Positions 22,882 through 47,962 of a stretch of 64,000 nt of DNA are shown in pieces (the stretch's first letter is position 1; each line of letters starts with the position of its first letter). The DNA comes from a virus. Location: the IMG/VR virus record IMGVR_UViG_3300020048_000003. One strand, given 5' to 3'. The notes under the pieces were generated by a model. It did no database searches. It had not been told where the DNA came from and worked only from the letters and a program-made list of their open reading frames with translations. The translations under genes were made by a program, and so were the position numbers.

Positions 22882-22893
22882 AACACATTACTA

Positions 22894-23112
22894 TTAAAGA
22901 CGACTTACAATCTTTTCCAATTTTAACCTCCTATACTCTTTAAGTTCTATGAAAAAACTCCGAGGATATGCAAAATACTCTCCAATATCATTCAACACAA
23001 CTATCCTATCATCCGTATATTTCCACTTATTCCTCCTATTATAATCAATTTCATATACCCTTCCAATAGTTATGAAAATCTGACCCTTACTATTTATACA
23101 TATCACTCTCAT
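22894..23112 (-). CDS. famB small protein
   Basis: MRVICINSKG..ITIGRVYEI...ELKEYRRLKLEKIVSRL. Confidence 0.85.
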   Translation of the reverse strand: MRVICINSKGQIFITIGRVYEIDYNRRNKWKYTDDRIVVLNDIGEYFAYPRSFFIELKEYRRLKLEKIVSRL

Positions 23113-23312
23113 ATTCTTTCTAATTGAAGTTTATCTAATTTCTTCTTACGCTCATCCCTTATACTATATTTAACACACTTTATATTCATATCATGAACAC
23201 CACAAATACCATGTAAACAATCCCTATAAGTTTCTATATGCGGCTTAATATGTGGACACTCCACCTTTTTACAACCTTCAGCCATTGAACATACCATCAC
23301 TATTTCTGTCAT
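23109..23312 (-). CDS. Cys-rich famB small protein
   Basis: CSMAEGCKKVECPH...CLHGICGVH...IRDERKKKLDKLQ. Confidence 0.7.
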   Translation of the reverse strand: MTEIVMVCSMAEGCKKVECPHIKPHIETYRDCLHGICGVHDMNIKCVKYSIRDERKKKLDKLQLERI

Positions 23313-23313
23313 A

Positions 23314-23502
23314 TTATTCTCTCCAACTATCTAAATTTTCTAATTTCTTTTTACGAACCTCCTTTAATGAAATAAACCTCCAAGCATAATAACCATTAAT
23401 GAAAACTCCACCACTATAATCCTCAATTATATAAATCTTATTCTCCTCCAGTACCTTAGTACTACGAGCATCAATACAAATAACCCTATCTCCTATCTTC
23501 AT
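23314..23502 (-). CDS. famB small protein
   Basis: MKIGDRVICIDAR...RFISLKEVRKKKLENL. Confidence 0.85.
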   Translation of the reverse strand: MKIGDRVICIDARSTKVLEENKIYIIEDYSGGVFINGYYAWRFISLKEVRKKKLENLDSWRE

Positions 23503-23753
23503 ATCTCCGGTTCTATTAAAGACGACTTATTAATTTTTTCCAACTTTAACCTCCGATACTCACTCTCAGTAGCAAAATAACAACAATCGTAAGAAAATAT
23601 ATCACCACTATTATTCTCAATCAGATAATGAGTTAATTTCTTATTATTAATATTATGAATTTGAAATCCATCATCATCATAAAATAAAACAGTATACCAC
23701 TTTCCAGGTGTTATCCAAGTATGCTGACCCTTATCTACACATAATATCTTCAT
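23499..23753 (-). CDS. famB small protein
   Basis: MKILCVDKG...ESEYRRLKLEKINKSSLIEPEI. Confidence 0.8.
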   Translation of the reverse strand: MKILCVDKGQHTWITPGKWYTVLFYDDDGFQIHNINNKKLTHYLIENNSGDIFSYDCCYFATESEYRRLKLEKINKSSLIEPEI

Positions 23754-23983
23754 AACTCCGGTTCTATTAAAGACGACCTATTTATTCTTTCCAATTTCTT
23801 ACGACGATACTCCTTTAATGTAACAAAATGCCGATCAGCATAACAAAATCGTGACCCCATATCATTAATAATCCAATACTCCTTGAAAATCCTCTGAGAA
23901 ATACAAGCCACAACCTCATACTTTCTACCAACAGTTATAAAACTCTGCTCACCTCTATTTATACAAACTACCTTCAAATTCAT
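23750..23983 (-). CDS. famB small protein
   Basis: VVCINRGEQSFITVGRKYEV...LKEYRRKKLERINRSSLIEPEL. Confidence 0.85.
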   Translation of the reverse strand: MNLKVVCINRGEQSFITVGRKYEVVACISQRIFKEYWIINDMGSRFCYADRHFVTLKEYRRKKLERINRSSLIEPEL

Positions 23984-24210
23984 AACTCACTCTTATTTCT
24001 TAACTCCAACAACTTTAACCTACGATACTCCTTATTATTGTTAAATAACTTCATAGGATAACTAAAACTAAATCCCATATCATTAAAAACTAAATACTCA
24101 CCATAAGTAGAAGATAACTCACAATCATACAACTTACCAACAGTTAATAAAAAATATCCACAATACTCTCCATTACGAATATTATTCTTCTCAATACATA
24201 TTAACCTCAT
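23980..24210 (-). CDS. famB small protein
   Basis: MRLICIEKN...LTVGKLY...NKEYRRLKLLEL. Confidence 0.85.
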   Translation of the reverse strand: MRLICIEKNNIRNGEYCGYFLLTVGKLYDCELSSTYGEYLVFNDMGFSFSYPMKLFNNNKEYRRLKLLELRNKSEL

Positions 24211-24433
24211 ATTTCATCCTTATCTTGTTTAACTTTTCACTCCTTTCATCCTTTATATCCATAAAACATTCAGCCTCATATGGTCCACAAAAACCATCAT
24301 CATTATTTATTCTGTAATATATACAACCATCATAAGAACGATAAGAATCATGTACAAAATACCGCCTACCAACAGTTATAAAATTATAATCAAAAGCATT
24401 TATACATATTAAATAATCACCAACCTTTTTCAT
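24191..24433 (-). CDS. famB small protein
   Basis: KKVGDYLICINA..ITVGRRY...IKDERSEKLNKI. Confidence 0.8.
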   Translation of the reverse strand: MKKVGDYLICINAFDYNFITVGRRYFVHDSYRSYDGCIYYRINNDDGFCGPYEAECFMDIKDERSEKLNKIRMKYEVNMY

Positions 24434-24678
24434 AACTCCATAATTATTTTTAACTTCTTCTTCCTTATATCCCGAACCTTCTCAAACCTCCAACTATAAT
24501 AACCATTAATGTAAAATTCTCCATCATAATCACCAAGATAACTTAACTTCTCTATAATATATACACGACCCAGCTTTAACTCCATAACATTAGCAGCAGG
24601 ATGCTTGTCATTAATACATACAACCCTATCACCTAATTTGAAATTATTAATACTTGATACCCTATTCTCCATTATCAT
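24430..24678 (-). CDS. famB small protein
   Basis: FKLGDRVVCIND...KVRDIRKKKLKII. Confidence 0.85.
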   Translation of the reverse strand: MIMENRVSSINNFKLGDRVVCINDKHPAANVMELKLGRVYIIEKLSYLGDYDGEFYINGYYSWRFEKVRDIRKKKLKIIMEL

Positions 24679-24914
24679 ACCGTTTCTATTAGAGACGACC
24701 TACTTATTCTTTCCAATTTCTTACGACGATACTCCCGAACATCCTCAAACCGCCAAGTAAAATAACCATTGATATATGTATCACCATCAGGCGAATAACT
24801 ATAATCCTCAACCTCCTTTATAATATAAATTTTACCAATAGTTAAATAGTTCTCAACCATCGCATTATCTATACATACTACCCTATCACCTACTTTACAA
24901 TCTAATATATTCAT
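24675..24914 (-). CDS. famB small protein
   Basis: CKVGDRVVCIDN..LTIGKIY...DVREYRRKKLERISRSSLIETV. Confidence 0.85.
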   Translation of the reverse strand: MNILDCKVGDRVVCIDNAMVENYLTIGKIYIIKEVEDYSYSPDGDTYINGYFTWRFEDVREYRRKKLERISRSSLIETV

Positions 24915-24923
24915 ATATTCATA

Positions 24924-25181
24924 CTACCACCTATTATTAATCTTTTCCAATTTACGCTTACGATAATCCCTCAAACTTATAAACCTATTCTCATAATAAC
25001 CATTTACATAATATTCATCTGACCGAGCAGTCCTACCATACTCAACCACATAAACTTGATTAAGAACTAAACAATCCTCTACTCCAAAATTATCTATACA
25101 TACAACCCTCTCACCCTCATTATACTTACAAGAGTTCTTATTCTTAGAACTCACTGCCGAATCACTCAAATACCTACCCAT
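24924..25181 (-). CDS. famB small protein
   Basis: EGERVVCIDN...RFISLRDYRKRKLEKINNRW. Confidence 0.85.
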   Translation of the reverse strand: MGRYLSDSAVSSKNKNSCKYNEGERVVCIDNFGVEDCLVLNQVYVVEYGRTARSDEYYVNGYYENRFISLRDYRKRKLEKINNRW

Positions 25182-25416
25182 TAAAGACGACCTCCCCCAA
25201 TTTCCTTAATTTCAAACAACGACTCTTCTTCTCCTCCATCACATATGGCTCCGTATACCAACTCTTATTACCATAATCATCTACTATTAAAAACCTCACA
25301 CTTCCCCACTCATCTACCCTCTGTGTATTAGGCAAAATATTTAACACCTCATAACTCTTTCCAATAGTTAATCCCATATAATCACCAAAATATGTCTTTA
25401 CAAATATTACCCTCAT
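25174..25416 (-). CDS. famB small protein
   Basis: MRVIFVKTY..LTIGKSYEV...KKSRCLKLRKLGE. Confidence 0.75.
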   Translation of the reverse strand: MRVIFVKTYFGDYMGLTIGKSYEVLNILPNTQRVDEWGSVRFLIVDDYGNKSWYTEPYVMEEKKSRCLKLRKLGEVVFNG

Positions 25417-25511
25417 TCCCCAAAGATAAAAATAATTACCAATATAAAAAAATATCCACTCAAAATTTAATATAAAATTTTAATATATAAAGAAAAATAA
25501 TCATATCACAC

Positions 25512-25712
25512 ATGAAAAACTTTGAAGAATATCAACAAACAAAAGAACAAACAAACGAATCAGTTACTCCCGGTAACCTTTATAGAGATATGAACCAACA
25601 ATTTACACAACTATTACAAACAGTCTGCGATAAATACCAAATAACAAACGAAGAAGCATCACAAGTTATAGCCGATTACTTTACATCTAAACAATGGAAC
25701 GTTACAGCATAA
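25512..25712 (+). CDS. hypothetical small protein
   Basis: 66-aa ORF after divergent intergenic region; followed by terminator. Confidence 0.45.
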   Translation: MKNFEEYQQTKEQTNESVTPGNLYRDMNQQFTQLLQTVCDKYQITNEEASQVIADYFTSKQWNVTA

Positions 25713-25868
25713 AAACATTAACAAAAAAATACCAAAATGTTCAGAAATACCACCTAAAATTTATTATATCTATCACAAAATTGTGTCAAAAAGTGGAGAA
25801 AAGTGGTAAAAAGTGGCGAAAAATGGAGGTAAAAAGATAACACTATAAGAATAAACACTTTAAGAAAA

Positions 25869-25901
25869 CCTGGATAACCGACGACTATCCAGGTATTTTT
25901 T
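25869..25901 (+). terminator. rho-independent terminator
   Basis: CCTGGATAaccgacgacTATCCAGG + TATTTTTTT. Confidence 0.65.
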
Positions 25902-26047
25902 TAGGATCCTAAAATAAGCCTCTGTATCACTCTCCAATACAGCATCCTATTCTCCTGACCCCGAGATACTTACAAAGTTCTTAATCTTTTGATAATGAAC
26001 AAGTTGCGACTGACAAAAAGTCACATGCCAAAGTATAAAAAAGGAGT

Positions 26048-26066
26048 AATTTAGAATTGTTCTAAA
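26048..26066. promoter_or_regulatory. perfect palindrome AATTTAGAA-TTG-TTCTAAATT (operator-like)
   Basis: 9-bp arms read directly; second copy 26228-26246. Confidence 0.5.
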
Positions 26067-26094
26067 TTGCTCAAATATTCAAACGGAGTTTGAA

Positions 26095-26116
26095 GTTCAG
26101 AACTTTGTTCTGAATA
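26095..26116. promoter_or_regulatory. palindrome AGTTCAGAAC-TTT-GTTCTGAAT (operator-like)
   Basis: 9 of 10 bp arms. Confidence 0.4.
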
Positions 26117-26150
26117 TTTTTTAGTTTGACTTTAAAGTATTATCTTTGTT

Positions 26151-26426
26151 ATGTGGGAGTGTGAGCCGATTTTTCCGGTTAATAAAGGTGAAATTACAAT
26201 TGTAAACTTGATAGGTTTACTAAAGCAATTTAGAATCGTTCTAAATAGTGGATGCCCAATTTTTTTATTCAACTTTTCTCCCTATCTTTGTATTCTAAAA
26301 ATAACAACTATGGGTTTCTTAGCATTCTTTCTTATTGTAATTGGAATAGTAAATGGTAAAACAGGATTAGTTTTGCTTGGATGTTTGGTATATCTATTAA
26401 GTTATAAAACAAAAAAATCAAAATGA
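26151..26426 (+). CDS. small hydrophobic peptide (real start probably internal Met at ~26311: MGFLAFFLIVIGIV...)
   Basis: track ORF; C-terminal 38 aa strongly hydrophobic; N-part overlaps palindromes. Confidence 0.35.
   Translation: MWECEPIFPVNKGEITIVNLIGLLKQFRIVLNSGCPIFLFNFSPYLCILKITTMGFLAFFLIVIGIVNGKTGLVLLGCLVYLLSYKTKKSK
26228..26246. promoter_or_regulatory. second copy of TTTAGAA-N3-TTCTAAA palindrome
   Basis: AATTTAGAA-TCG-TTCTAAAT. Confidence 0.5.
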
Positions 26427-26608
26427 TAGTAGAAGTATGGAATGACGATTATAGTACATCAGCATTCACTCAAGGTGATCCTAATAAAGACATCATCTTG
26501 GGACCAAATCCTGTATTCGTTAGAACTATTGAAGGGGAAGATTGGAACGATTGCATGAAACAACATCACGAACTAATGGGTTGGGAACCTTATATACCTT
26601 TTGAATAA
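26423..26608 (+). CDS. hypothetical small protein
   Basis: 61 aa, acidic; ATGA-type overlap with flanking ORFs. Confidence 0.45.
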   Translation: MIVEVWNDDYSTSAFTQGDPNKDIILGPNPVFVRTIEGEDWNDCMKQHHELMGWEPYIPFE

Positions 26609-26793
26609 TGATCGAACATTTTATAAATTACTTGGGTACATTTGCACTATTACTATTTGGTTGGTGGTTCACACTACTACTAATAGATTATATCTTAATT
26701 GATACCAATAAAGAACATTGGAAAATGAAACTATGGAAATGGATAACATTCATTTATATTATACTAGCAATATACTTCTATATTAGAAAATAA
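26608..26793 (+). CDS. small membrane protein (2 TM)
   Basis: ALLLFGWWFTLLLIDYILI / WITFIYIILAIYFYI. Confidence 0.45.
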   Translation: MIEHFINYLGTFALLLFGWWFTLLLIDYILIDTNKEHWKMKLWKWITFIYIILAIYFYIRK

Positions 26794-26901
26794 TGTGGAC
26801 CCATTTGGGGACACAGAATAGAAGGGAATAGGTTTAATTAAGGATTAAGTAAATTTCACCCGGGTGATCGTTTTAAATTAATATAAAAAACAATAAAAAA
26901 T

Positions 26902-27261
26902 ATGAAAGAATCAAAGAAATATGTAATAGCTTTTTTATTTGCTATGATTACTCTTGTACTCATGAGTGGATTAAATGAATGGACTCGTTGGGGTATAGAT
27001 TTATTAGTTGGGTGGTTTCCGATTACTGCTTGGTTCTCAACTATAAGAGTTATTAATATGAATAATGGTACTAAGTATGAACATACATCTTGGGGAACAG
27101 TAGGTTTTGCATTTGTAATAGCATTACTATTATCTTCTTTATGTTCTATTCTTCTTATGCCATTAGTAGTAAATGGATTCTTAACTGGTTTATTGTATAA
27201 CTTAATGACTAAGCCAGATGTGATAGAGGAAGAAATTGAAAAAAAAGATACAGATTTTTAA
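26902..27261 (+). CDS. membrane protein (3-4 TM)
   Basis: 119 aa hydrophobic. Confidence 0.5.
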   Translation: MKESKKYVIAFLFAMITLVLMSGLNEWTRWGIDLLVGWFPITAWFSTIRVINMNNGTKYEHTSWGTVGFAFVIALLLSSLCSILLMPLVVNGFLTGLLYNLMTKPDVIEEEIEKKDTDF

Positions 27262-27897
27262 AACTTTTGGTTTAAAATAACATATACTAATACACAAGTT
27301 AAGTTTTTAAGTTTAACAACAACATAAAGTAATTGCCGCAAGCTTTTGCTTAGTTGATAAAGACTTTAACTGAGGATTTGAATCCAGTTCATCCTGTTCT
27401 ACGGAACTTAAAGTTAATTGGCAGTCGGTTTACAAAGACTTATAAAACAGTTAATCGCGCCCTACTAAAATTTTGGGGCAGTTAGCACCTCCTAAATAGG
27501 TGACAGATGTTAAACATATGTTTACATACCGTTTAACACTCCGTTTTTCTTAGAAACTGTTACGTGAAATTTTCTAAGGTCTTTTCCCTTCAACTTGCAA
27601 GGGTAGTCTAAGTGGACGACGTGAGTCACGCTGAACTAACACAGGTTAAAGTTAGTGTTTATAGAGTTAAACTCTATAGTTTGGGAACCTTATATCCCTA
27701 CACTTGTTTACAATATTAGAATATTGTTAAGTTCTTGTAAACAATGTATCTGGCTCAAAGCCAGGTCAGTAACTACATTAATACAACAGTAATGTTCTGT
27801 TTATGTAAAGTGCTGATAGCATAGAAGAATCTACGGGTTCTATTATGTTAATAGAGAAGCCTCATTGAAGATAATTCTTTGAGGCTTCTTTTTTTAT
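27262..27897 (+). ncRNA. candidate structured ncRNA or long 3' UTR (unidentified class)
   Basis: ~600 nt with no ORF >=60 aa on either strand, higher G+C, internal palindromes (CGTGAgTCACG, GGATTtgAATCC), ends in strong terminator. Confidence 0.35.
27855..27897 (+). terminator. rho-independent terminator
   Basis: AGAAGCCTCA...TGAGGCTTCT + TTTTTTTATT. Confidence 0.7.
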
Positions 27898-27994
27898 TAA
27901 AACAATTAGCTTATATTTGAACAGTAGTTCAAACTTTCAAACTTTGTTTGAATATTTGTATAGATAATTAATAACAATATAATACAATAACATT

Positions 27995-28357
27995 ATGATA
28001 ATACTCTATATTCTTTTAGCGTTAGGCTTCATTACAATAGGTATACTTGCCTACCAATCTGATAAGCATCTCAAATGGTTCAACTCTCTACAGCCCGGTG
28101 ACCAGGTGTTGGTACGTATATACTCTAAGTACTGTGAGTGTGCTAGGGTAGCCACGGTAACGGTAGCAAGTGATGGTAAGTACATACAATGTACAATGAG
28201 TGAACAAGTGTCTAAGGATTGTAAAGACTGTGCAGCTATTAATGGTAGGGACAGTAAGGGTAACAATACTTGTTGGCACCATGTGACATACTATAAGCGT
28301 AAGGATATATCTAAGGTCACTGATAAGGCTAAGATATATACCACATTGGGTAAATAG
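27995..28357 (+). CDS. membrane-anchored Cys-rich protein (atypical G+C-richer codon usage)
   Basis: N-terminal TM then CEC...C..C..C...C; AAG/GTG-rich codons unlike neighbours. Confidence 0.5.
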   Translation: MIILYILLALGFITIGILAYQSDKHLKWFNSLQPGDQVLVRIYSKYCECARVATVTVASDGKYIQCTMSEQVSKDCKDCAAINGRDSKGNNTCWHHVTYYKRKDISKVTDKAKIYTTLGK

Positions 28358-28415
28358 TCTACACACTCTACACTATTCTACACTACCTTAATAGGAGGTG
28401 GTGTGATAGGTATGC

Positions 28416-28718
28416 TTAGCCGATTGAGTCTATGCGTACTATTATATTATTATATAGGGTAACAACAATACGATATTGATCGTATTCGTAAGGCTTAAGC
28501 TGTAGTTCGTTATCTTTATTGCCCACGAATATATAATAATGTCGTGGTAATATTGTGCGTCCTTGTTCAAGTAATTCGTCTGTACCGTTATCAAACAATA
28601 TAATATCGTTGGGGTTCATGCCGACTATATGACTAAAATCTTCTGGTGTCTTATTACTTGTCTGTACGTTACCGTATATCCCTTTCACCACCCTGGGTGG
28701 TATGTATATATTACCCAT
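28416..28718 (-). CDS. hypothetical protein (atypical codon usage)
   Basis: 100-aa ORF in G+C-richer island. Confidence 0.45.
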   Translation of the reverse strand: MGNIYIPPRVVKGIYGNVQTSNKTPEDFSHIVGMNPNDIILFDNGTDELLEQGRTILPRHYYIFVGNKDNELQLKPYEYDQYRIVVTLYNNIIVRIDSIG

Positions 28719-28916
28719 AGAATATCTCTCTTTTTTAACTATATATTATTAGGTGGAGGCTCTCTACAATTTTTCTGAATTTTAATAGGATTTTTTTTCT
28801 ACACAAGGTGACTAGGCTTAGTGCCTTGAGGCAACAAACTTTTCTACACTAGGCAAGGCGCTCGCCCTCCCCAATTTAGGAGGTAGACAACAATAACATA
28901 TTGTTATCATCTACCT

Positions 28917-28941
28917 ATGTCCATGTGTGTCACATGGACAT
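28917..28941. repeat. perfect inverted repeat ATGTCCATGTG-tgt-CACATGGACAT
   Basis: 11-bp arms, 3-nt spacer; followed by direct repeats ATGTAGAT x2. Confidence 0.6.
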
Positions 28942-29140
28942 ATGTAACATACTTGGATATGACTCCAAGGAGCATACGTATGTAGATATGTAGATATGTG
29001 TATATGGGGTCCATACAAAAATTGGCGCATATTTGAATGTTTTTCTCCCAGCACATTTTTAAAATAAAAGAAATTTTTATATGCCCTTTCCCCTATATAT
29101 AGCGTGGCCCCATATGTGGGTATAAACACTTCCCAATATT

Positions 29141-29290
29141 GATTTTGAAAATTTTTTTTTTGGGGAAAAATTTAGCAAAAATTCGCCAGGATTGATTTTC
29201 AAAAATTTTTTTTGGGGAAAATTTTTTATATAGATTTTCAAAAATTTTTTTGGGGAAAATTTTTGGATTTTTTTGGGAAAATTTTTTTAT
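29141..29290. repeat. ~4 tandem imperfect copies of ~35-nt unit GATTTTCAAAAATTTTTTTTGGGGAAAATTTTT (iteron-like)
   Basis: read directly; abuts tRNA-like element. Confidence 0.6.
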
Positions 29291-29296
29291 TCTTAT

Positions 29297-29388
29297 ATTG
29301 TGGTGTGGGATTCGAACCCACGCGCCAGTGATTAACTGACCTGTTTGTTTTCAAGACAAATCTCTTACAACCGCTTGAGTAATCTTCC
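29297..29388 (-). tRNA. tRNA-Ser(UGA)-like: D-arm, anticodon arm (CU-UGA-AA), long variable arm and T-arm (GGTTCGAATCC) intact, 3' acceptor strand does not pair (possible pseudo-tRNA or junction)
   Basis: revcomp GGAAGATTACTCAAGCGGTTGTAAGAGATTTGTCTTGAAAACAAACAGGTCAGTTAATCACTGGCGCGTGGGTTCGAATCCCAC then ACCACAAT instead of ATCTTCC-N-CCA. Confidence 0.5.
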
Positions 29389-29536
29389 GTTATTTTTCCC
29401 TTAGTATTTTTTCTTTCCAATACTTTCTTCTTCTGGTTGAATTTTTCGTTTTAGATTTGAATGTACTTGTCTGTGAATCACAATTAGGACATATCAATCT
29501 AAGATTAATCCTTTTGTTATTCGATGCGTCACCTTA

Positions 29537-30295
29537 TTATAATTGTGATGTATTAATAGGTAGATTAAATGAAAAAGTACTACCCTTCTTTATTTTACTA
29601 CTAATTTGTAGTGTTCCGCCATTTAATTTTATGAAACTTTTACACAACTTCAATCCCAATCCGCTTCCCTTTTCTGCATTTGTTCCAAACGTTGTATAAA
29701 ATTCGTTATCAGATAAAATTCTATCAATATTATCTTGACTAATACCAATTCCATTATCCGATATTTCAATTTTTATAAACTCATTGTCAGTTGTCATGTT
29801 AATACTAATCTTACCGTTTTTATTTGTAAATTTTATGGCATTAGATAATAAATTTCTAACTACAGATTCTATCATTATTTTATCAGCGTATGCTGTGAAT
29901 ACTCCAGAATAGTTTTTTTCTACTGTAATATTTTTCTCAATAAATCTATAATCTAAAATCATAAATTTTTTATCAATTATTTCGTTTAGATTAATTATGA
30001 CAGGATTATATGAAAGTGCATTTTTATTATGTGTTGCCCACTGTAATAGATTTTCTAACAACTCAAATGTACGTTTAGACAAGTCTTTTATAAAACCCAA
30101 GTATTGATATAATTCAGATTCAGTTACATCATCCTTTTCTGCAATTAATTCAGATATTTGCATTATACTACCTATCGGACCTCGTAAGTCATGCCCAATA
30201 ATGGCTAAAATAGTATCCTTTGTCTCATTTAATACACGAAACTGTTCAAGAGATTCTTCTAAATCGTTACATCGGCAACCCGATTTTCTTTCCAT
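29537..30295 (-). CDS. histidine kinase core (HisKA + HATPase_c), no sensor/TM domain
   Basis: H-box IIGHDLRGPIGSI; N-box LLSNAIKFT; G1 DNGIGIS; G2 GSGLGLKLCKSFI. Confidence 0.8.
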   Translation of the reverse strand: MERKSGCRCNDLEESLEQFRVLNETKDTILAIIGHDLRGPIGSIMQISELIAEKDDVTESELYQYLGFIKDLSKRTFELLENLLQWATHNKNALSYNPVIINLNEIIDKKFMILDYRFIEKNITVEKNYSGVFTAYADKIMIESVVRNLLSNAIKFTNKNGKISINMTTDNEFIKIEISDNGIGISQDNIDRILSDNEFYTTFGTNAEKGSGLGLKLCKSFIKLNGGTLQISSKIKKGSTFSFNLPINTSQL

Positions 30296-30379
30296 TTTTA
30301 TGATTTGTTTTTTATAAATAGATTCTTTTTAATTTAATCTATCACTTCTGATTCCATTTCCTCGTTATCGACACCGTTA

Positions 30380-30586
30380 TCAGTATCTTCTATTTTGGTT
30401 ATTGTAACTGGGTATTTGGTTATTGTAACTGGATAAACTTGCCCAACAACATTTAGGGTCTTGCCTGGTAGCAACTCGCGCGCTAACCAGAGCAATTATT
30501 GTAATTTGGTATTCTTGGAATCCAATTTGTAGGATAAGTGCTGATACAACGAGGATCATTTTCAATATTTCAAGGAATGGTTTCAT
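30380..30586 (-). CDS. small membrane protein with QIPSYNN repeat
   Basis: start ATGA-coupled to famB gene 30583..30915; contains 15-bp direct repeat GGTTATTGTAACTGG x2. Confidence 0.4.
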   Translation of the reverse strand: MKPFLEILKMILVVSALILQIGFQEYQITIIALVSARVATRQDPKCCWASLSSYNNQIPSYNNQNRRY

Positions 30587-30915
30587 GTTTTTAATTTTTT
30601 AAGTTTTAATTTTCTAATTTCTTGTTGTGTATAGAAGTATTGGTTATAGTCGTAGAATGTGTAGTTATTGGGTATTTGTGGTATTAATATGGAGAGCCAT
30701 ATATGGTCGTAATTATTAGGGTGGTTAGTTTCAATTTGGTATGATATTATTTTCACTCCTGTTTTTTCTCCGTTGGGTAGTGAAAATTCGTCTTTATATA
30801 CTCCAATGATGTTATACCATTTATTTTTTGTAAATAGTTCTAGTGATTTATCTTCTTTTCGTATCACAAATAATTCGTCTTTAATGGAGAATGATTTTTT
30901 ACAAAGTATTTTCAT
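30583..30915 (-). CDS. famB protein
   Basis: MKILCKKS...YFYTQQEIRKLKLKKLKT. Confidence 0.8.
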   Translation of the reverse strand: MKILCKKSFSIKDELFVIRKEDKSLELFTKNKWYNIIGVYKDEFSLPNGEKTGVKIISYQIETNHPNNYDHIWLSILIPQIPNNYTFYDYNQYFYTQQEIRKLKLKKLKT

Positions 30916-31150: not shown

Positions 31151-31451
31151 TTAGTTTTTGTATTTTTTGTTTTCTCAGGTAATTTTTTGCGTTTATAAAT
31201 TCAAATTTTTCTTTATTAGTTTGGATATAAAAATCATAACTATCTTCTACTAAGATTTCATTTCCTATTTCATCGTCATTTCTATAATTTTTAATTATTA
31301 GTGGATATTTCCTGGAGGAGAAGCGAATTTCTTGTCCACAGCTTTTCCATTTATATCCAAGTTTGAATAATTCTTTTTGTATTTCGCACCATTCTGTATC
31401 GTTATTACAAATGATGCTAAATTTAAAATATTTAATTCTGCTTATTATCAT
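31131..31451 (-). CDS. famB protein
   Basis: C-term NYLRKQKIQKLNENIQI. Confidence 0.75.
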   Translation of the reverse strand: MIISRIKYFKFSIICNNDTEWCEIQKELFKLGYKWKSCGQEIRFSSRKYPLIIKNYRNDDEIGNEILVEDSYDFYIQTNKEKFEFINAKNYLRKQKIQKLNENIQI

Positions 31452-31600
31452 TTAGTTTTTGTAATTTTTCTTTTCGTTGTAATTTTTTAAGTTGGATTTC
31501 GTCTTCAATAGTAAAGTTATATATTTCTTTAATCCAAATTGGTTTAAGTTCTGGTATATTTTTAAGTATTTGGTATACTTGTTTTACTTTTGTATTCATT
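31431..31600 (-). CDS. short famB member (~55 aa, below track cutoff)
   Basis: manual: MNTKVKQVYQILKN...LKKLQRKEKLQKLNDNKQN*. Confidence 0.5.
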
Positions 31601-31867
31601 TTTTATTAATTTTTTCAATTTTTGTTTTCTCAGGTGTTTATTAAATACTGGGTCTTTTTTGATTTCGTCAATTTCGCCCCAGTAGAGTCGTTTTTCGTTA
31701 CCTTGTTCAAATCCTATTATTATATAGAGGGGGTATTCTTGTTCTTGGAATAGTAGCATTTGTTCTTCAATTGGTCTATTGTAGAATCCCCAGTTATATC
31801 CTTTTTGAAGGTATTTGAGTTGTATTTTATAACAATTTTTTTGATTTTTGCAGAGTATAAATTTCAT
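31562..31867 (-). CDS. famB protein
   Basis: C-term NKHLRKQKLKKLIKNEY. Confidence 0.75.
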   Translation of the reverse strand: MKFILCKNQKNCYKIQLKYLQKGYNWGFYNRPIEEQMLLFQEQEYPLYIIIGFEQGNEKRLYWGEIDEIKKDPVFNKHLRKQKLKKLIKNEYKSKTSIPNT

Positions 31868-32148
31868 ATTTCGTCTTTAATAGTATTGAGTTTTTTCAGT
31901 TTGAGTTGTCTAAGTTCTTGTTGTGTATAGAAGTAGTCTTCAAAGAGTGGTAGGTATTTATCACCATATCTTGATAGTCTTGATGTATATAGGTAGTGAG
32001 ATTTATAGAAAAATCTAGTATGTGACATTATGTTATTGTATATTATTAATATTTCGCAACTATCTTTATTTTTATCGTCTTGAGCGGTATAAGTTTGATT
32101 TTCTTTATAGTTGTAATATGTTTTTTTACAAGTTGTTTGGAATATCAT
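31864..32148 (-). CDS. famB small protein
   Basis: DYFYTQQELRQLKLKKLNTIKDEI. Confidence 0.8.
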   Translation of the reverse strand: MIFQTTCKKTYYNYKENQTYTAQDDKNKDSCEILIIYNNIMSHTRFFYKSHYLYTSRLSRYGDKYLPLFEDYFYTQQELRQLKLKKLNTIKDEI

Positions 32149-32461: not shown

Positions 32462-32473
32462 TGTTGGTATGAT

Positions 32474-32857
32474 TTAAATTTCGTCTTTAATGGATAGGCG
32501 GTCTTTAATATGTTGGAGTTTTTCTTTTCTAATTATTTTGATATCTATAATTTTTTGTATATCAATATTATATTGATCTTTTACTTTTTTTATTTTTCTA
32601 ATATCGTCTGGTGTTAATTTTTTTTGTATTAGTGAGTATATTTCTTTTTTTGATAGATCTCTATAATTGTAATATGCTAGTCCGGCGCTATACCAATCGT
32701 ATTTTGCTAAGCCACCGTTATGTGAAATATCTTCAAGTGATATAATGCAATAATCGTTTCTAATATTTGTAAAGATGATACATTTTGCGAATGTTTTATC
32801 TTTATACATTCTGGCACATAGTTTAGGATTACCTATTGTTGGTTTAACAAAGTTCAT
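32474..32857 (-). CDS. famB subfamily MNF(V/I)KP protein
   Basis: MNFVKPTIGNPKLCARMY...IIRKEKLQHIKDRLSIKDEI; close paralog of 32854..33258. Confidence 0.8.
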   Translation of the reverse strand: MNFVKPTIGNPKLCARMYKDKTFAKCIIFTNIRNDYCIISLEDISHNGGLAKYDWYSAGLAYYNYRDLSKKEIYSLIQKKLTPDDIRKIKKVKDQYNIDIQKIIDIKIIRKEKLQHIKDRLSIKDEI

Positions 32858-33258
32858 AAAATTTCGTCTTTAATAGATAGGTTTTTAATTTTTTGTAATT
32901 TTTCTTTTCTTAATTTTTTAATATCTATAAGTTTTTTTAAGTCAATGCAGAAGTCGTTTTTAATTCTTCGTATTTGTTCGGTATCTTTTTGGGATAATTT
33001 TTCGGTTAAATATGGTAATGAATAGATTTCAAGGTTATTTAAGTTTCTATATTTATATGAATTTAGACCTGCGTTATACCATTCATATTTTGATAGACCA
33101 CCGTTATGATTAATATCTTCAAGTGCTATTATGAGGTAATTTTTTTCTGATGTTTTATTGTCGGAGGATTTGAACATGATACATCTTGCGAATCTATTAT
33201 CTTCGTATACTCTGGCACATAATTTTGTTTCACCGATTTTAGGTTTAATAAAGTTCAT
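32854..33258 (-). CDS. famB subfamily MNF(V/I)KP protein
   Basis: MNFIKPKIGETKLCARVY...KLRKEKLQKIKNLSIKDEIL. Confidence 0.8.
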   Translation of the reverse strand: MNFIKPKIGETKLCARVYEDNRFARCIMFKSSDNKTSEKNYLIIALEDINHNGGLSKYEWYNAGLNSYKYRNLNNLEIYSLPYLTEKLSQKDTEQIRRIKNDFCIDLKKLIDIKKLRKEKLQKIKNLSIKDEIL

Positions 33259-33263
33259 ATAAT

Positions 33264-33518
33264 TTAAATTTCGTCTTTAATTGATAGGTCTTTAATATGT
33301 TGTAATTTTTGTTTTCTAAGTTCTTGTATGGTGTAGAAGAAGTAGTTTATTTCAAGTTCGGTAAAAGAGTAATTGTAGTACCAATCATTTCTATCGTCTT
33401 TAATTGGTATTATCCAGTCGTAGGGATTTATGTTTGATTTATTGGTATATTTAAAAGCCAGGTAATATTCGTTTTCAACAATATACTGGTTTATTCTTTT
33501 TTTACAAAGTAGTTTCAT
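33264..33518 (-). CDS. famB small protein
   Basis: FFYTIQELRKQKLQHIKDLSIKDEI. Confidence 0.8.
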   Translation of the reverse strand: MKLLCKKRINQYIVENEYYLAFKYTNKSNINPYDWIIPIKDDRNDWYYNYSFTELEINYFFYTIQELRKQKLQHIKDLSIKDEI

Positions 33519-35492: not shown

Positions 35493-35505
35493 AGTTTTAT
35501 GGTTT

Positions 35506-35712
35506 TTATGGTTTAATTTCGTCTTTAATGGATAAGTTATTTATTTTTTGTTTTCTTATTAGTTTAATATTAAATGGTATGCAGGGTTGTATATTTTCGT
35601 GATATTTACAAATACCGCTATCACAATTTATTTCTCTCATATGTGGTTTTTTATGTGGACATATTTTGCTTTTACAATTTAAGTCTGGACAAATGAGGTT
35701 ATTTTCTTTCAT
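35506..35712 (-). CDS. Cys-rich famB small protein
   Basis: CPDLNCKSKICPH...CDSGICKYH...IRKQKINNLSIKDEI. Confidence 0.75.
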   Translation of the reverse strand: MKENNLICPDLNCKSKICPHKKPHMREINCDSGICKYHENIQPCIPFNIKLIRKQKINNLSIKDEIKP

Positions 35713-35887: not shown

Positions 35888-35903
35888 ATATTTTGATCTA
35901 ATA

Positions 35904-36161
35904 TTATTTTTTTTTAAGTTGTTTTAATTTTATTATTCTTAATTCTTGTTTTGTATAGAAGTAGTCTGTTATAGTATGTGCGAAATGTGGTCCGAACCAT
36001 AAGCCTTTTATTGGTATAGAATCTTGTGAATGTTCGTCAGTTAACACATAGCAATTTCCATCGTTTGGTTCTCTATATCCATTAGTACGGATTTCGTATT
36101 TTTGGTTTATTCGGTATATTCTAAAACCTATAAGATTTTTTTTACAAATTAGGTATTTCAT
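35904..36161 (-). CDS. famB small protein
   Basis: MKYLICKKNLIG...DYFYTKQELRIIKLKQLKKK. Confidence 0.85.
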   Translation of the reverse strand: MKYLICKKNLIGFRIYRINQKYEIRTNGYREPNDGNCYVLTDEHSQDSIPIKGLWFGPHFAHTITDYFYTKQELRIIKLKQLKKK

Positions 36162-36426
36162 TTAATTTTTGGAGTTTTATTTTTCTTAATTCTTGTTTTG
36201 TATAGAAGTAGTCTGTTACTTTATTTCCGAATTGTGGTCCGAACCAAAGTCCTTTTGTAACTGCAGGATCGTTAGTATATTCATCTGTTAGCATAAAGCA
36301 GTTCTGTCTAGAAAGTGATTTTTCGTTATTTTGGCTACTAACAAACATTTGTCCGATTTCGTATTCATTACCGGATCTAAATATTCTATCACCAAAAAGT
36401 TCTTTTTTACAAATTAGGTATTTCAT
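36142..36426 (-). CDS. famB small protein
   Basis: MKYLICKKELFG...DYFYTKQELRKIKLQKLNEIPNL. Confidence 0.85.
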   Translation of the reverse strand: MKYLICKKELFGDRIFRSGNEYEIGQMFVSSQNNEKSLSRQNCFMLTDEYTNDPAVTKGLWFGPQFGNKVTDYFYTKQELRKIKLQKLNEIPNL

Positions 36427-36700
36427 TTTGGTAAATTTCGTCTTTAATTGTTAGTTTTAGTAATTTTGCTTTTCTTAGTTCTTGATTGGTAAAATAGAAG
36501 TAATCGTTTATATCTTTTGCATAAAGATTATTGACATTATTACTGAACCACAAACCTTTTATAGTATGTGAATCTTTAGCAAATTCATCAGTTAGTATAA
36601 AAAATCCTGTGTTACTATCTTCTATATAAACTTCATATTCTTTACCGACTCTATATGTTCTATCACCTATTAAATCTTTTTTACAAATCAATGTTTTCAT
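36407..36700 (-). CDS. famB small protein
   Basis: MKTLICKKDLIG...DYFYFTNQELRKAKLLKLTIKDEI. Confidence 0.85.
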   Translation of the reverse strand: MKTLICKKDLIGDRTYRVGKEYEVYIEDSNTGFFILTDEFAKDSHTIKGLWFSNNVNNLYAKDINDYFYFTNQELRKAKLLKLTIKDEIYQNEIPNL

Positions 36701-36932
36701 TTAGTTTTTTCAATTTTTGTTTTCTAATTTCTTGTGTTGTATAGAAATATCTTTCTTTTTCGTATTTGGTTAGGTAGTATTCTATAGATGGATCAATTAT
36801 TATTAAGGCACCTCCAAATTCGTTTATTGATTTAATTCTATAAAAATTTCCTTTGGTTATCCATTTTGTTCTTTCAAAATTGGTTATCCAGTTTTTATTT
36901 TTTTTACATAGAAGTTGTTCGGGTGTTTTCAT
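36681..36932 (-). CDS. famB small protein
   Basis: RYFYTTQEIRKQKLKKLNENIDL. Confidence 0.8.
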   Translation of the reverse strand: MKTPEQLLCKKNKNWITNFERTKWITKGNFYRIKSINEFGGALIIIDPSIEYYLTKYEKERYFYTTQEIRKQKLKKLNENIDL

Positions 36933-37206
36933 TTAGTTTTTTCAATTTTTGTTTTCTTATTTGTTTGATATCAAATCTATTATGAAAATCTTTTATTTTC
37001 ATTAGAACGTGATAACCTTCTTTTATGTTAATTAGTTCTACATAAGGTATTGTACCTGAACCTTTTGTATTTTCTAAATTTTCAAAAGAGTCAATTTCAA
37101 ATGCTTCGTTTGCTGGAACGTTATGCCATTTATTTTCACCATGAGTTTGGTGCCATCTATATTCTTTAAAGGTATAGACTATATCGTGTATTTTAAATTT
37201 TTTCAT
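36904..37206 (-). CDS. famB protein
   Basis: KFKIHDIVYTF...DIKQIRKQKLKKLNENTR. Confidence 0.8.
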   Translation of the reverse strand: MKKFKIHDIVYTFKEYRWHQTHGENKWHNVPANEAFEIDSFENLENTKGSGTIPYVELINIKEGYHVLMKIKDFHNRFDIKQIRKQKLKKLNENTRTTSM

Positions 37207-37555
37207 TTAATTTAGTTAATTTATCTTTTCTCATTTCTTTAATTCCTGTATAGAAGTGTTTGCTAAAATAATCTTCACCTTTTTTTTTATCTTTTTTCCA
37301 GTTATTCCAGTTTATAGATGATACATTTTTATTTTGAACGGCTGCTGCTGGATTTATTATAAATCTTTCAAAATCTTTTTCAGTAAACATTGTTATAGAG
37401 TTTGGTATATTATCATCGTCAAAATCAAGTATATAGTATGTTTCACCTTTTTTCAAGAATGTATTTGGTTCTTTTTCAAAGATGCGGATTAGCCAGTATC
37501 TGGATAATCCAGCGTAGTCATTTTTCTTACATATAACTGGATCTCCTTTTTTCAT
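37193..37555 (-). CDS. famB protein
   Basis: MKKGDPVICKKND...GIKEMRKDKLTKLNEKI. Confidence 0.8.
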   Translation of the reverse strand: MKKGDPVICKKNDYAGLSRYWLIRIFEKEPNTFLKKGETYYILDFDDDNIPNSITMFTEKDFERFIINPAAAVQNKNVSSINWNNWKKDKKKGEDYFSKHFYTGIKEMRKDKLTKLNEKI

Positions 37556-37809
37556 ATTTCTATTTTTTGTAATTTTTTTAGTTTTTCTTTTCTAAAGTCT
37601 TTTATTGTTTTTGAATCTTCTTTTATTTGTTTTTTCACGAAGAATATATGTATTGTTAAACTAACTGCTGTACATATTAATGATATCCATATATTCCAGA
37701 AGTCTTGTATAAATAGGTTTATCAAGTTACACCAGAAGAAGAACAAATTTGCAAAGAAGAACAGTTTAATAAGTATTGAAAATATTGTTTTTATTATTTT
37801 TTTTATCAT
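37552..37809 (-). CDS. membrane protein with famB tail
   Basis: 2 TM + IKDFRKEKLKKLQKIEI. Confidence 0.6.
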   Translation of the reverse strand: MIKKIIKTIFSILIKLFFFANLFFFWCNLINLFIQDFWNIWISLICTAVSLTIHIFFVKKQIKEDSKTIKDFRKEKLKKLQKIEI

Positions 37810-37907
37810 TATTATGGTTATAATTATATTCTATAAATATAGGGGTAAACTTTTAATAAAAAAAGTTTTTATATATATGAATATAAAAAAAATTGTCTTT
37901 AATAGGT

Positions 37908-47883: not shown

Positions 47884-47905
47884 TTAAAAAATTGTCTTTA
47901 ATAGT

Positions 47906-47935: not shown

Positions 47936-47962
47936 CGGTAAATTTTTATATATAACTATAAT

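What the first reader, a model, noticed from the sequence alone, without database searches (positions are those of the whole stretch)
22891..37902. Recurrent 13-14 nt motif (T)YGTCTTTAAT(A/G/T)G at 13 places, in both orientations relative to genes
On the + strand it occurs at 31870, 32480, 32863, 33270, 35518 and 36437 (TTCGTCTTTAAT.G), and at 37890 and 47892 as AAAAAATTGTCTTTAATAG just upstream of famA sub-array starts. Its reverse complement occurs at 22891, 23513, 23764, 24686 and 25179. Inside famB genes it encodes ...SIKDEI or ...RSSLIEPE tails depending on orientation, so it is conserved as DNA rather than as peptide. It could be a binding site (for the RHH protein, an integrase or an array-specific regulator) or a recombination hotspot.
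Basis: seen in the sequence. Interest (0 to 1): 0.55.

Follow-up and report, generated by a model that had tools for sequence, protein, structure and literature searches.

The report
Polar 13-nt motif at gene junctions
A 13-base DNA word, kept by selection on the DNA itself, sits at the borders of small genes on both sides of a 5-kb origin-like island in an uncultured giant phage. Every copy points away from the island, and one natural variant has lost exactly one gene between two copies, but what reads the word is still unknown.

Summary
T[C/T]GTCTTTAAT[A/G/T]G occurs 14 times exactly (0.14 expected), and the 9-nt core GTCTTTAAT occurs 16 times. The word is conserved as DNA: it is read in three frames in one array and antisense (IKDE) in the other. 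It uses minority codons, and it stays about 10-80-fold over expectation when proteins are held fixed and codons resampled. The conserved block is sharply bounded, non-palindromic and has no hairpin. New findings: (1) every copy points away from a gene-poor island (25.4-30.5 kb), and third-codon GC and AT skews switch sign at 27.0 kb regardless of gene strand. (2) A second assembly of the same phage carries an extra 206-bp one-gene cassette whose two borders are the motif, with the crossover inside a 16-nt identity. (3) A 19-nt version brackets a 10-kb sub-array. The motif is absent from other similar arrays in the window, from 13 kb of flanks and from distant relatives. I favour (0.3) a direction-dependent expression signal for outward transcription that also serves as a recombination crossover point. 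An orientation-blind operator, a replication-linked polar site, a dedicated recombination site and a Csp/boxA-like RNA site remain open. No link to an RHH protein or an integrase was found.

The parts
22891..22903 (-). Motif copy TCGTCTTTAATAG in array 1, sense to the genes. Read as ..VSRL** at the end of gene 22894-23112; the next gene starts 12 nt downstream.
23513..23525 (-). Motif copy in array 1, sense. Read as ..KSSLIEPEI* at the end of gene 23499-23753; the next ATG is 21 nt from G0.
23762..23777 (-). Motif copy (13-mer at 23764-23776) inside the 16-nt identity GTCGTCTTTAATAGAA. This is the crossover interval of the 206-bp one-gene cassette indel seen in ENA contig k141_278361.
24686..24698 (-). 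One-mismatch copy TCGTCTCTAATAG in array 1, sense (..RSSLIETV*). It lies at the 3' edge of a 55-nt tail-plus-motif tract shared, with 3 mismatches, with gene 23750-23983.
25178..25190 (-). Innermost left copy TCGTCTTTAATGG, read as ..EVVFNG*. The start codon of the next gene overlaps the motif.
25417..30582 (.). Central gene-poor island, from which all copies point away. It holds phased AAAAGTGGNG x4 repeats, a 35-38-nt repeat x3-4, palindromes, a 630-nt highly structured ORF-free stretch, a degenerate tRNA-like sequence and a histidine-kinase-like gene. Third-codon GC and AT skews switch sign here.
30875..30887 (+). Innermost right copy TCGTCTTTAATGG, antisense to the genes, at codons 10-14 (SIKDE) of gene 30583-30915. 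It forms a perfect 13-bp inverted repeat with the 25178 copy.
31499..31511 (+). One-mismatch copy TCGTCTTCAATAG, antisense (TIEDEI) in gene 31432-31599.
31871..31883 (+). Copy in array 2, antisense (..NTIKDEI* tail of gene 31864-32148).
32481..32511 (+). Full copy at 32481-32493 (..LSIKDEI*) plus a core-only copy GGTCTTTAATATG (core at 32501-32509), both in the tail of gene 32474-32857.
32864..32876 (+). Copy in array 2, antisense (..LSIKDEIL* tail of gene 32854-33258).
33271..33298 (+). Full copy at 33271-33283 plus a core-only copy (core at 33288-33296), both in the tail of gene 33264-33518.
33394..33406 (+). Copy in mid-gene, antisense (PIKDD in gene 33264-33518).
35519..35531 (+). Copy in array 2, antisense (..LSIKDEIKP* tail of gene 35506-35712).
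36438..36450 (+). Copy in array 2, antisense (..TIKDEIYQNEIPNL*). The junction's stop codon is lost here, so the ORF runs on into the head of the next gene.
37887..37905 (+). Intergenic 19-mer AAAAAATTGTCTTTAATAG between the divergent array 2 and the first famA sub-array. It is sense to famA, and the ATG lies 4 nt after the motif.
47886..47904 (+). Identical 19-mer 9,999 bp downstream, 2 nt after the stop codon of gene 47572-47883 (10 nt to the GTCTTTAAT core). It is followed by an ATG (a 19-aa mini-ORF), a terminator-like hairpin with a T9 run, and then the next sub-array.
62411..62611 (+). Cold-shock-domain protein gene. It is only a candidate reader: the known CspB consensus GTCTTT[G/T] and the co-crystallised RNA GUCUUUA match the first 7 nt of the invariant core.

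Best explanation
The motif is a 13-nt, non-palindromic recognition sequence, T[C/T]GTCTTTAAT[A/G/T]G, with weaker conservation out to about 18-21 nt. It is maintained by selection on the DNA, and its direction is set by which side of the central island it lies on, not by gene direction.

I think it is most likely a direction-dependent expression signal of this phage. That would be a promoter-type element, or less likely a processivity element, for transcription that runs outward from the island. In array 1 and at the heads of the two famA sub-arrays it would act in the sense direction, just upstream of start codons. In array 2 it would give antisense transcription.

Because identical copies lie as direct repeats at successive gene borders, they also serve as crossover points at which single genes, and possibly whole sub-arrays, are lost, gained or converted.

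Shown: the motif itself, its DNA-level constraint, its sharp bounds, its polarity, its clustering, and the cassette indel with its crossover inside the motif.

For: The block is sharply bounded and position-specific. Across 12 independent contexts 12 positions are fixed, and an internal position takes A, G or T freely. This is a recognition-site signature rather than recent copying.

The motif uses rare codons and far exceeds the synonymous-resampling expectation.

All 16 core copies and both one-mismatch copies point outward, and it is the most polar word in the window, 16:0.

The flip coincides with an independent landmark. Third-position GC and AT skews both fit best with a switch at 27.0 kb, and the side effect (0.37) exceeds the gene-strand effect (0.16).

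All sense copies lie 7-24 nt upstream of a start codon. Two head the famA sub-arrays, and in three copies the ATG sits at the same offset.

No -35-like block and no hairpin accompany the motif. Short conserved motifs near the start site, different in each phage, are what jumbo-phage RNA polymerases use (PMC7598289).

The crossover role is observed directly. The 206-bp cassette indel has a 16-nt crossover interval inside the motif. A 55-nt conversion tract ends at the motif, and a 19-nt direct repeat brackets a 10-kb sub-array.

In T4-type phages, repeated regulatory motifs at ORFan borders that also mediate indels are documented (PMC2839356).
Against: Ten of the 16 core copies would be antisense promoters embedded in intact genes, which is unusual.

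The 47.9-kb copy is followed within 5 nt by a good intrinsic-terminator-like hairpin, an awkward arrangement for a promoter.

Other arrays of the same gene family in the window (4.5-13 kb and 54.5-64 kb) have no copy, and array heads already carry a TATATATA-type promoter-like motif.

No phage RNA polymerase or sigma factor is visible in the 77 kb I could read.

The orientations fall into only about three classes that are independent by descent, so the polarity by itself has a chance probability of roughly 0.25.

The structural variant is a single event, and it lies in the longest perfect identity available, as simple homology would also predict.

There are no transcript data.
Confidence: 0.3

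Rival explanations
1. The motif is an orientation-blind double-stranded DNA operator. A phage DNA-binding regulator would bind it at gene borders, acting as a repressor, activator or roadblock. The orientation would then be a historical accident inherited within each array by duplication.
For: This explains all copies without invoking antisense transcription. The sharp, roughly 13-21 bp footprint-like conservation fits protein binding. Placement at the least constrained places in a gene-dense region (tails and spacers) is expected for any DNA site. The polarity has a chance probability of about 0.25 once descent is allowed for.
Against: The site is asymmetric, with neither inverted nor direct half-sites, unlike typical dimeric HTH or RHH operators. 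No credible regulator lies next to it: there is only one weak RHH_3 hit at E = 0.005, and the island ORFs have no family. Array 1 keeps the pyrimidine-rich orientation using rare TCG and GTC codons, although the complement would encode as easily as it does in array 2. That suggests orientation matters. The flip coincides exactly with the skew switch.
Confidence: 0.2
2. The motif is a replication-linked polar element. The island would be a bidirectional origin, and the motif would always lie on the strand that is the lagging-strand template of the outgoing fork. There it would be read as single-stranded DNA or as a polar duplex site, for example a priming or loading site, a polar fork barrier, or a site for the phage cold-shock-domain protein.
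For: Every copy is on the G- and T-rich strand, 5'->3' away from the point where both GC3 and AT3 skews switch independently of gene strand. The cumulative GC-skew minimum lies at 26-30 kb. Iteron-like phased repeats sit in the island. Copies are concentrated within about 8 kb of the switch. The invariant core begins with GTC, and GTCTTT[G/T] is the measured single-strand consensus of CspB (PMC1904285). The window encodes a CSD protein. This reading explains all copies with a single rule.
Against: I know of no phage precedent for a 13-nt polar replication word. Cold-shock domains cover 6-7 nt with limited selectivity (PMC7825780), so they cannot explain 12 fixed positions. Primases need only 3-5 nt. 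The skew could instead reflect outward transcription. The origin assignment is inferred from composition alone.
Confidence: 0.17
3. The motif is a dedicated recombination or cleavage site. A site-specific recombinase or nicking endonuclease would act on it to insert, excise or convert gene cassettes, in an integron-like or homing-like manner.
For: A one-gene cassette presence/absence polymorphism has both borders in the motif. The tail-plus-motif module has been copied between unrelated gene bodies. Runs of consecutive junctions carry the motif (23.5-23.8 kb and 32.5-33.3 kb). A 10-kb segment is bracketed by a 19-nt direct repeat. A GIY-YIG endonuclease gene lies in the window.
Against: There is no inverted-repeat partner or hairpin such as recombinase core sites and attC have. 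No recombinase or integrase was found among 118 non-array ORFs. The extra gene is an old paralogue (47% identity to its neighbour), so the variant is most simply a deletion between the longest perfect direct repeats. Only about a third of the junctions carry the motif.
Confidence: 0.1
4. The motif acts only as RNA. It would be a high-affinity site on outward transcripts for a cold-shock-domain protein or a Nus-type (boxA-like) complex, suppressing termination or opening start regions.
For: GUCUUUA is the RNA co-crystallised with CspB (PMC7825780). UCUUUAA is shared with the rrn boxA and its first spacer base, UGCUCUUUA-A (PMC2724277). The sense copies sit in a 5' leader (37.9 kb), between cistrons (array 1), and 5 nt before the only clear terminator-like hairpin (47.9 kb). 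Divergent placement around a control region recalls lambda nutL and nutR (my own knowledge).
Against: Ten of the 16 copies are on the non-coding strand of array 2 and would need antisense transcripts. The first two boxA bases (GC) are replaced by CG, and there is no boxB. The motif is not preferentially unpaired in predicted folds: about 0.5, the same as its flanks. Twelve fixed positions exceed what a CSD reads.
Confidence: 0.1
5. The motif is a by-product of paralogy. It would be merely the inherited coding sequence of famB tails and has no function of its own.
For: Most copies lie in or next to the conserved tails of one gene superfamily. The tail consensus KLxK[IL][KN][DEN] can itself encode IKD.
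Against: The same 13-mer occurs in three frames, on the opposite strand, at an N-terminus, in mid-gene and in two intergenic spacers. It is 10-80-fold over the synonymous-resampling expectation. Minority codons are fixed. Close paralogues lack it. Seventy-three tail-bearing genes exist in the window, but only the two arrays flanking the island carry it.
Confidence: 0.03

Closest known systems
PeSL mobile regulatory cassettes of T4-type phages (Arbiol et al. 2010, PMC2839356; Comeau et al. 2014, PMC4122927)
   Same: Both are short conserved motifs repeated at the borders of small ORFan genes in plastic regions. In both, indels between near-identical phages end in the repeats, so a regulatory repeat doubles as a recombination substrate.
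   Different: PeSLs are larger composite elements made of a sigma70-like promoter plus a terminator stem-loop. By my recollection they are intergenic and co-oriented with the genes. This motif is a 13-nt word with no hairpin and no -35/-10 pair. It is mostly inside coding tails, antisense to one whole array, and oriented by its position relative to an island.
Phage-polymerase promoters: T7-type, and the phage-specific early motifs of RNAP-encoding jumbo phages (PMC7598289)
   Same: Both are highly conserved, asymmetric, phage-specific motifs of about 10-23 nt with no -35 element, lying close to starts and often overlapping the end of the upstream gene. In T7, by my own knowledge, such promoters cluster downstream of the primary origin.
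   Different: No transcript starts are known here and no polymerase gene is visible. Most copies are antisense to genes, and one copy is followed directly by a terminator-like hairpin.
boxA of nut and rrn antitermination sites (PMC2724277)
   Same: The two share the heptamer UCUUUAA. The motif is placed divergently on either side of a control region, and one copy sits just upstream of a terminator.
   Different: The 5' GC of boxA is CG here, and there is no boxB. There are 16 copies rather than one per operon, and most copies are on the non-coding strand.
Cold-shock protein binding consensus GTCTTT[G/T] / GUCUUUA (PMC1904285, PMC7825780)
   Same: The first seven invariant bases match exactly. 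A CSD gene lies in the same window and is homologous to CspB and CspE.
   Different: CSDs contact 6-7 nt with limited selectivity, whereas 12 positions are fixed here. There is no evidence of single-strandedness.
Tus-Ter / RTP polar fork barriers (my own knowledge)
   Same: Both are asymmetric core sites arranged as two opposed clusters around a special point of the replicon.
   Different: Ter clusters flank a terminus, whereas the skew sign here suggests an origin. No Tus or RTP homologue was seen, and the spacing is in kilobases rather than hundreds of kilobases.
Integron attC cassette arrays (my own knowledge)
   Same: Both involve arrays of small ORFan cassettes, with cassette presence/absence whose crossover lies at a conserved junction site.
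   Different: There is no imperfect-palindrome hairpin and no integrase. Only about a third of the junctions carry the site.

Membership tests
PeSL-type mobile regulatory cassette | Repeated at borders of small ORFan genes in a plastic region | tested here: met
   Fourteen of 16 core copies lie within 30 nt of a gene border or start codon in arrays of ORFan genes of 60-135 aa.
PeSL-type mobile regulatory cassette | Indels between closely related genomes end in the repeats | tested here: met
   A 206-bp one-gene indel between the window and ENA k141_278361 has its crossover inside a 16-nt motif identity. It is the only structural difference in about 45 kb, so n = 1.
PeSL-type mobile regulatory cassette | Composite sigma70-like promoter plus terminator stem-loop | tested here: not met
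   Conservation is confined to positions -2..+10, with weak signals at -5, +13 and +15. There is no -35/-10 pair and no conserved hairpin.
Phage-polymerase promoter | Conserved asymmetric motif of 10-23 nt specific to the phage | tested here: met
   Information profile. The motif is absent from relatives L123, L124 and L133.
Phage-polymerase promoter | Lies upstream of genes in the sense direction | tested here: inconclusive
   Seven window copies (5 in array 1, 2 at the famA heads), plus the extra copy in L001, are sense and lie 7-24 nt from a start codon. Eleven copies in array 2 are antisense.
Phage-polymerase promoter | Transcripts start at a fixed distance; a cognate polymerase or factor is encoded | not testable with these tools
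   There are no transcript data. Only 77 kb of a contig of at least 286 kb could be read.
boxA / nut antitermination site | Sequence [U/C]GCUCUU(U)A | tested here: inconclusive
   UCUUUAA is shared, but the two 5' bases are CG instead of GC.
boxA / nut antitermination site | Present on the sense transcript downstream of a promoter | tested here: inconclusive
   True for array 1 and the two famA copies. Not true for the array 2 copies unless antisense RNA exists.
Cold-shock-domain binding site | Heptamer GTCTTT[G/T] (A in the co-crystal RNA) | tested here: met
   Sixteen of 16 core copies begin with GTCTTTA (PMC1904285, PMC7825780).
Cold-shock-domain binding site | A 6-7 nt footprint suffices to explain the conservation | tested here: not met
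   Twelve fixed positions span 13 nt.
Integron attC | Imperfect inverted repeats folding into a hairpin; adjacent tyrosine recombinase | tested here: not met
   There is no conserved partner block or hairpin. No integrase family was found among 118 non-array ORFs.
Tus-Ter-like polar fork trap | Asymmetric sites in two opposed clusters | tested here: met
   Five copies on the minus strand to the left and 13 on the plus strand to the right of 25.4-30.5 kb.
Tus-Ter-like polar fork trap | Clusters flank the replication terminus | tested here: not met
   Cumulative GC skew has a minimum, not a maximum, at 26-30 kb, and the outward strand is G- and T-rich, which is origin-like.
Replication-origin iterons | Tight cluster (<1 kb) of direct repeats at the origin | tested here: not met
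   Copies are spread over 25 kb and none lies inside the island. Other repeats in the island fit this description better.
Chi-like recombination hotspot | Short word spread genome-wide and co-oriented with replication | tested here: not met
   The motif is co-oriented, but it is 13 nt long, clustered, and absent from 0-22.8 kb, from 48-64 kb and from 13 kb of flanks.

The most novel reading that the evidence does not exclude
The motif is an origin-referenced polarity signal. It would be a 13-nt word kept on the lagging-strand template on both sides of a phage replication origin and read strand-specifically, for example by the phage's cold-shock-domain protein, a primase or loader, or a polar fork barrier. 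The adjacent 630-nt structured RNA and the iteron-like repeats would be part of the same origin machinery. That would be a kind of replication-polarity element not described for phages, and its repeated copies would also drive cassette turnover.
Probability: 0.15. Interest if true: 0.8.

Novelty: new variant of a known kind. Interest (0 to 1): 0.5.

Why it matters
Uncultured giant phages carry long arrays of small genes of unknown function, and almost nothing is known about how those arrays are expressed or how they turn over.

This locus offers a defined 13-nt word that is clearly under selection. Its direction follows an origin-like landmark rather than the genes. A natural gene loss has occurred exactly between two of its copies.

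That gives a concrete, mutable handle for three experiments: transcript-start mapping, origin mapping, and population-level tracking of cassette gain and loss.

If the orientation rule holds genome-wide, it would show a regulatory or replication signal organised by replicon polarity in a phage.

Tried and rejected
Cultured-phage comparison. Megablast of 26-38.5 kb and tblastn of a famB and a famA protein against INPHARED found nothing.

Exact 14-mer scan of IMG/VR. It gave only scattered single chance hits.

Distant relatives. Those found through famB alignments have famA and famB arrays but no motif and no equivalent repeated word. They are L123-L125, which include a 330-kb contig, and L133.

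Protein searches. They returned only the phage's own proteins, so I had no handle on the rest of the genome and could not make a genome-wide census.

Host search. The histidine-kinase gene gave nothing. The tRNA-like sequence gave no exact match and then two uninformative MAG hits.

Literature string search for the motif. It returned only primers.

Rfam. Nothing was found at the motif.

Conserved RNA or DNA hairpin around the motif. None exists; the motif is no more or less paired than its flanks.

Sigma70-type promoters and terminators. Their counts in 19.5-39.4 kb match the shuffles.

The TATATATA promoter-like pattern. It is visible in intergenic gaps, but it is not enriched once mismatches are allowed.

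Readings rejected:
- An ECF-type promoter, because no -35 block is conserved.
- A palindromic operator, because the motif has no symmetry.
- MITE or transposon ends, because copies within an array are direct, not inverted.
- A 24-nt 'insertion' at 36440. It is a junction whose stop codon mutated, so the ORF reads on into the head of the next gene.

Full report
SETTING. The window has 25% GC and is packed with about 190 small ORFs, almost none of which has a family hit. The same sequence occurs in an ENA metagenome contig of 209 kb, in short Logan contigs, and in a cluster whose longest contig is 286,618 bp. The only relatives are uncultured viral contigs, one of 330 kb, that carry the same two families of small genes. 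It is therefore most likely part of an uncultured giant phage. I could read only the window plus 9 kb to its left and 4.4 kb to its right.

- YGTCTTTAATNG has 14 exact matches against 0.14 expected.
- The 9-nt core GTCTTTAAT occurs 16 times.
- TCGTCTTTAAT (12 copies) is the second most frequent 11-mer with at least 3 G or C bases in the window. The most frequent one encodes a peptide of the other gene family.

DNA OR PEPTIDE? DNA.
- Both flanking arrays (19.7-25.4 kb and 30.5-37.8 kb) are on the minus strand, and their proteins share a basic tail, E[YL]RKxKLKKL.
- In array 1 the motif is in the sense strand and is read in three frames (..VSRL**..SSLIEPE[IL]*..VVFNG*). In array 2 its complement is read as [S/T/P]IKD[E/D], usually at the C-terminus but also at an N-terminus and in mid-gene. 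Two copies are intergenic.
- Array 2 uses ATT for 31% of Ile and GAC for 35% of Asp, yet all 10 IKD at motif sites are ATT-AAA-GAC, and 18 other IKD tripeptides in the window never are. Array 1 spends rare TCG and GTC codons on the motif.
- With proteins held fixed and codons resampled, array 2 has 8 copies against 0.69 expected, and array 1 has 3 against 0.04.

ANATOMY.
- Across 12 contexts that are independent by descent, information content rises abruptly at position -2 and falls after +10. This gives T[C/T]GTCTTTAAT[A/G/T]G, with weaker A at -5, A at +13 and G at +15.
- The one internal position that varies is free (A, G or T) while its neighbours never change. That is what a contact pattern looks like, not recent copying.
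- The word has no internal symmetry, no conserved partner and no hairpin context. Its predicted unpaired probability equals that of its flanks.

WHERE AND WHICH WAY?
- All five left-hand copies are on the minus strand and all thirteen right-hand copies are on the plus strand. Every copy therefore points away from the gene-poor island at 25.4-30.5 kb. Among all 9-11-mers present on both sides, this is the most polar word, 16:0.
- The flip coincides with an independent landmark. A per-gene regression of third-position skew on gene strand and on side, over 182 genes, puts the best switch at 27.0 kb for both GC3 and AT3. The side effect (0.37) is larger than the gene-strand effect (0.16), with F = 226.
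- This explains why array 1 is G3-rich while array 2, on the same strand, is G3-poor. With the cumulative GC-skew minimum at 26-30 kb, the island looks like a bidirectional origin. That assignment is an inference from composition.
- The island also holds AAAAGTGGNG x4 at 10-bp phase, a 35-38-nt repeat x3-4, several palindromes, and a 630-nt ORF-free stretch that folds far better than shuffles (z = -10.6) and ends in a strong terminator.
- The motif is absent from the island itself, from other arrays of the same tail family at 4.5-13 kb and 54.5-64 kb (73 tail-bearing genes in all), from the 13 kb of flanks and from relatives.

RECOMBINATION.
- I compared the window with the other assemblies over about 45 kb. 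I found five SNPs, one 4-nt indel and one structural difference.
- In that structural difference, the ENA contig has an extra 206-bp gene (68 aa) between window genes 23750-23983 and 23499-23753.
- Both borders of the extra gene are the motif. The only sequence shared by the two junctions at the crossover is GTCGTCTTTAATAGAA, at window 23762-23777.
- The extra gene is an old paralogue, 47% identical to its neighbour. The window form is therefore most simply a deletion between direct repeats. The Logan assembly has the short form.
- Separately, a 55-nt tail-plus-motif tract with 3 mismatches is shared by two genes whose bodies are unrelated, and it ends about 8 nt past the motif.
- The 19-mer AAAAAATTGTCTTTAATAG brackets the first famA sub-array, with copies 9,999 bp apart.
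- Caveats: n = 1 for the indel, and the crossover lies in the longest perfect identity available, as plain homology would also predict.

WHAT READS IT? Not settled. The candidates are as follows.

- Favoured (0.3): a direction-dependent expression signal for outward transcription, promoter-like.
  - For: the sense copies lie 7-24 nt before start codons and two head sub-arrays. The motif has the size and asymmetry of phage-polymerase promoters, which in RNAP-encoding jumbo phages are short, phage-specific and lack a -35 element (PMC7598289). Repeated regulatory motifs that double as recombination substrates are known as PeSLs in T4-type phages (PMC2839356).
  - Against: most copies would be antisense promoters. 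The 47.9-kb copy is followed at once by a terminator-like hairpin. Array heads already carry a TATATATA-type motif.
- An orientation-blind operator (0.2) needs no antisense RNA. It fits poorly with the asymmetry of the word, with the costly orientation kept in array 1, and with the absence of a regulator nearby.
- A replication-linked polar site (0.17) explains every copy with one rule and fits the skew switch, but it has no phage precedent that I know of.
- Two sequence leads were checked in the literature.
  - The first seven invariant bases equal the CspB consensus GTCTTT[G/T] and the co-crystallised RNA GUCUUUA (PMC1904285, PMC7825780), and the window encodes a cold-shock-domain protein.
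  - UCUUUAA is shared with rrn boxA (PMC2724277).
  - Both remain leads only. A cold-shock domain reads 6-7 nt, and the boxA 5' bases differ.
- A dedicated recombination site (0.1) lacks the inverted repeat and the recombinase.
- A coding by-product is excluded.

VERDICT. The feature is real and selected, and its orientation rule is unusual. I found no evidence linking it to an RHH protein or an integrase. The element is closest in behaviour to PeSLs and to phage promoters, but it fails defining features of each, so I file it as a new variant of a known kind. The limits are one genome, 77 kb of at least 286 kb read, no transcript or binding data, and about three independent orientation classes.

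Noticed in passing
window 27270-27900 (+): A 630-nt ORF-free stretch folds far better than shuffles (MFE -174 against -127.5 kcal/mol, z = -10.6; the opposite strand gives z = -5.7). It ends in a strong intrinsic terminator at 27856-27895. No Rfam family matches. This is a candidate large structured RNA, and it sits exactly at the skew switch.
   Followed up: partly
whole window, switch at about 27.0 kb: Third-codon GC and AT skews change sign at the island regardless of gene strand (side effect 0.37 against gene-strand effect 0.16). This is an origin-like signature, and it explains why paralogous arrays on the same strand use opposite codon sets (AAG/GAG/AGG against AAA/GAA/AGA).
   Followed up: yes
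window 25783-25832; 29124-29290; 26049-26113 and 26228-26246: Iteron-like repeats lie in the island: AAAAGTGGNG x4 at 10-bp phase, and ATTGATTTTCAAAAATTTTTTTTGGGGAAAATTTT x3-4. There are also operator-like palindromes (ATTTAGAATTGTTCTAAAT twice, TTCAGAACTTTGTTCTGAA).
   Followed up: no
window 29301-29388 (-): A tRNA-like sequence scores 36 bits in Rfam. It has a UGA anticodon and a long variable arm, as in tRNA-Ser, but a broken acceptor stem, and ARAGORN does not call it. It may be a tRNA remnant. No exact match exists in GTDB species genomes.
   Followed up: partly
window 29537-30295 (-): A histidine-kinase-like gene (HisKA plus HATPase_c, with no sensor or transmembrane part) lies inside the island of a phage-like genome. 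No close relative was found in IMG/VR.
   Followed up: partly
window 30.5-37.8 kb, e.g. 36407-36426 and 36681-36700: A second junction type occurs in array 2. Neighbouring genes overlap by 20 nt out of frame at AATGAAA..TTGTAAAAAA, which encodes both the tail NExxxL* and the head MKxLxCKK. This is a conserved DNA junction explained by its double coding.
   Followed up: partly
73 genes across the window (4.0-13 kb, 19.7-25.4 kb, 30.5-37.8 kb, 54.5-64 kb): A very large family of 55-120-aa proteins has unrelated N-terminal parts (SH3-like GDRVVCID, CxxC zinc-ribbon-like, MKxLCKK) but a common basic C-terminal helix-like tail, [EQ][YLI]RKxKLxK[LI]. No family hit was found and the function is unknown.
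   Followed up: no
window 47907-47966 (+): A 19-codon hydrophobic mini-ORF (MGTFVLIFFCGKFLYITII*) starts 4 nt after the 47.9-kb motif copy. It contains the terminator-like hairpin and overlaps the next gene's start as ATGA.
   Followed up: no
intergenic gaps near 11.0, 13.47, 25.48, 37.87, 47.94 and 61.3 kb: The motif A(A/T)TTTTATATATAA lies 6-31 nt upstream of the first gene of several arrays. It resembles the AT-rich early-promoter motifs described for jumbo phages, but it is not statistically enriched once mismatches are allowed.
   Followed up: partly
window 61467-62342 (+) and 62411-62611 (+): A free-standing GIY-YIG endonuclease with NUMOD-type DNA-binding modules lies immediately upstream of the cold-shock-domain gene.
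   Followed up: no
window 26295; 34574 and 34584; 6566 and 6572; 62963: These are the only other differences between assemblies of this phage from different samples: a TAAT indel in the island and five SNPs, four of them in two close pairs (6566/6572 and 34574/34584).
   Followed up: no
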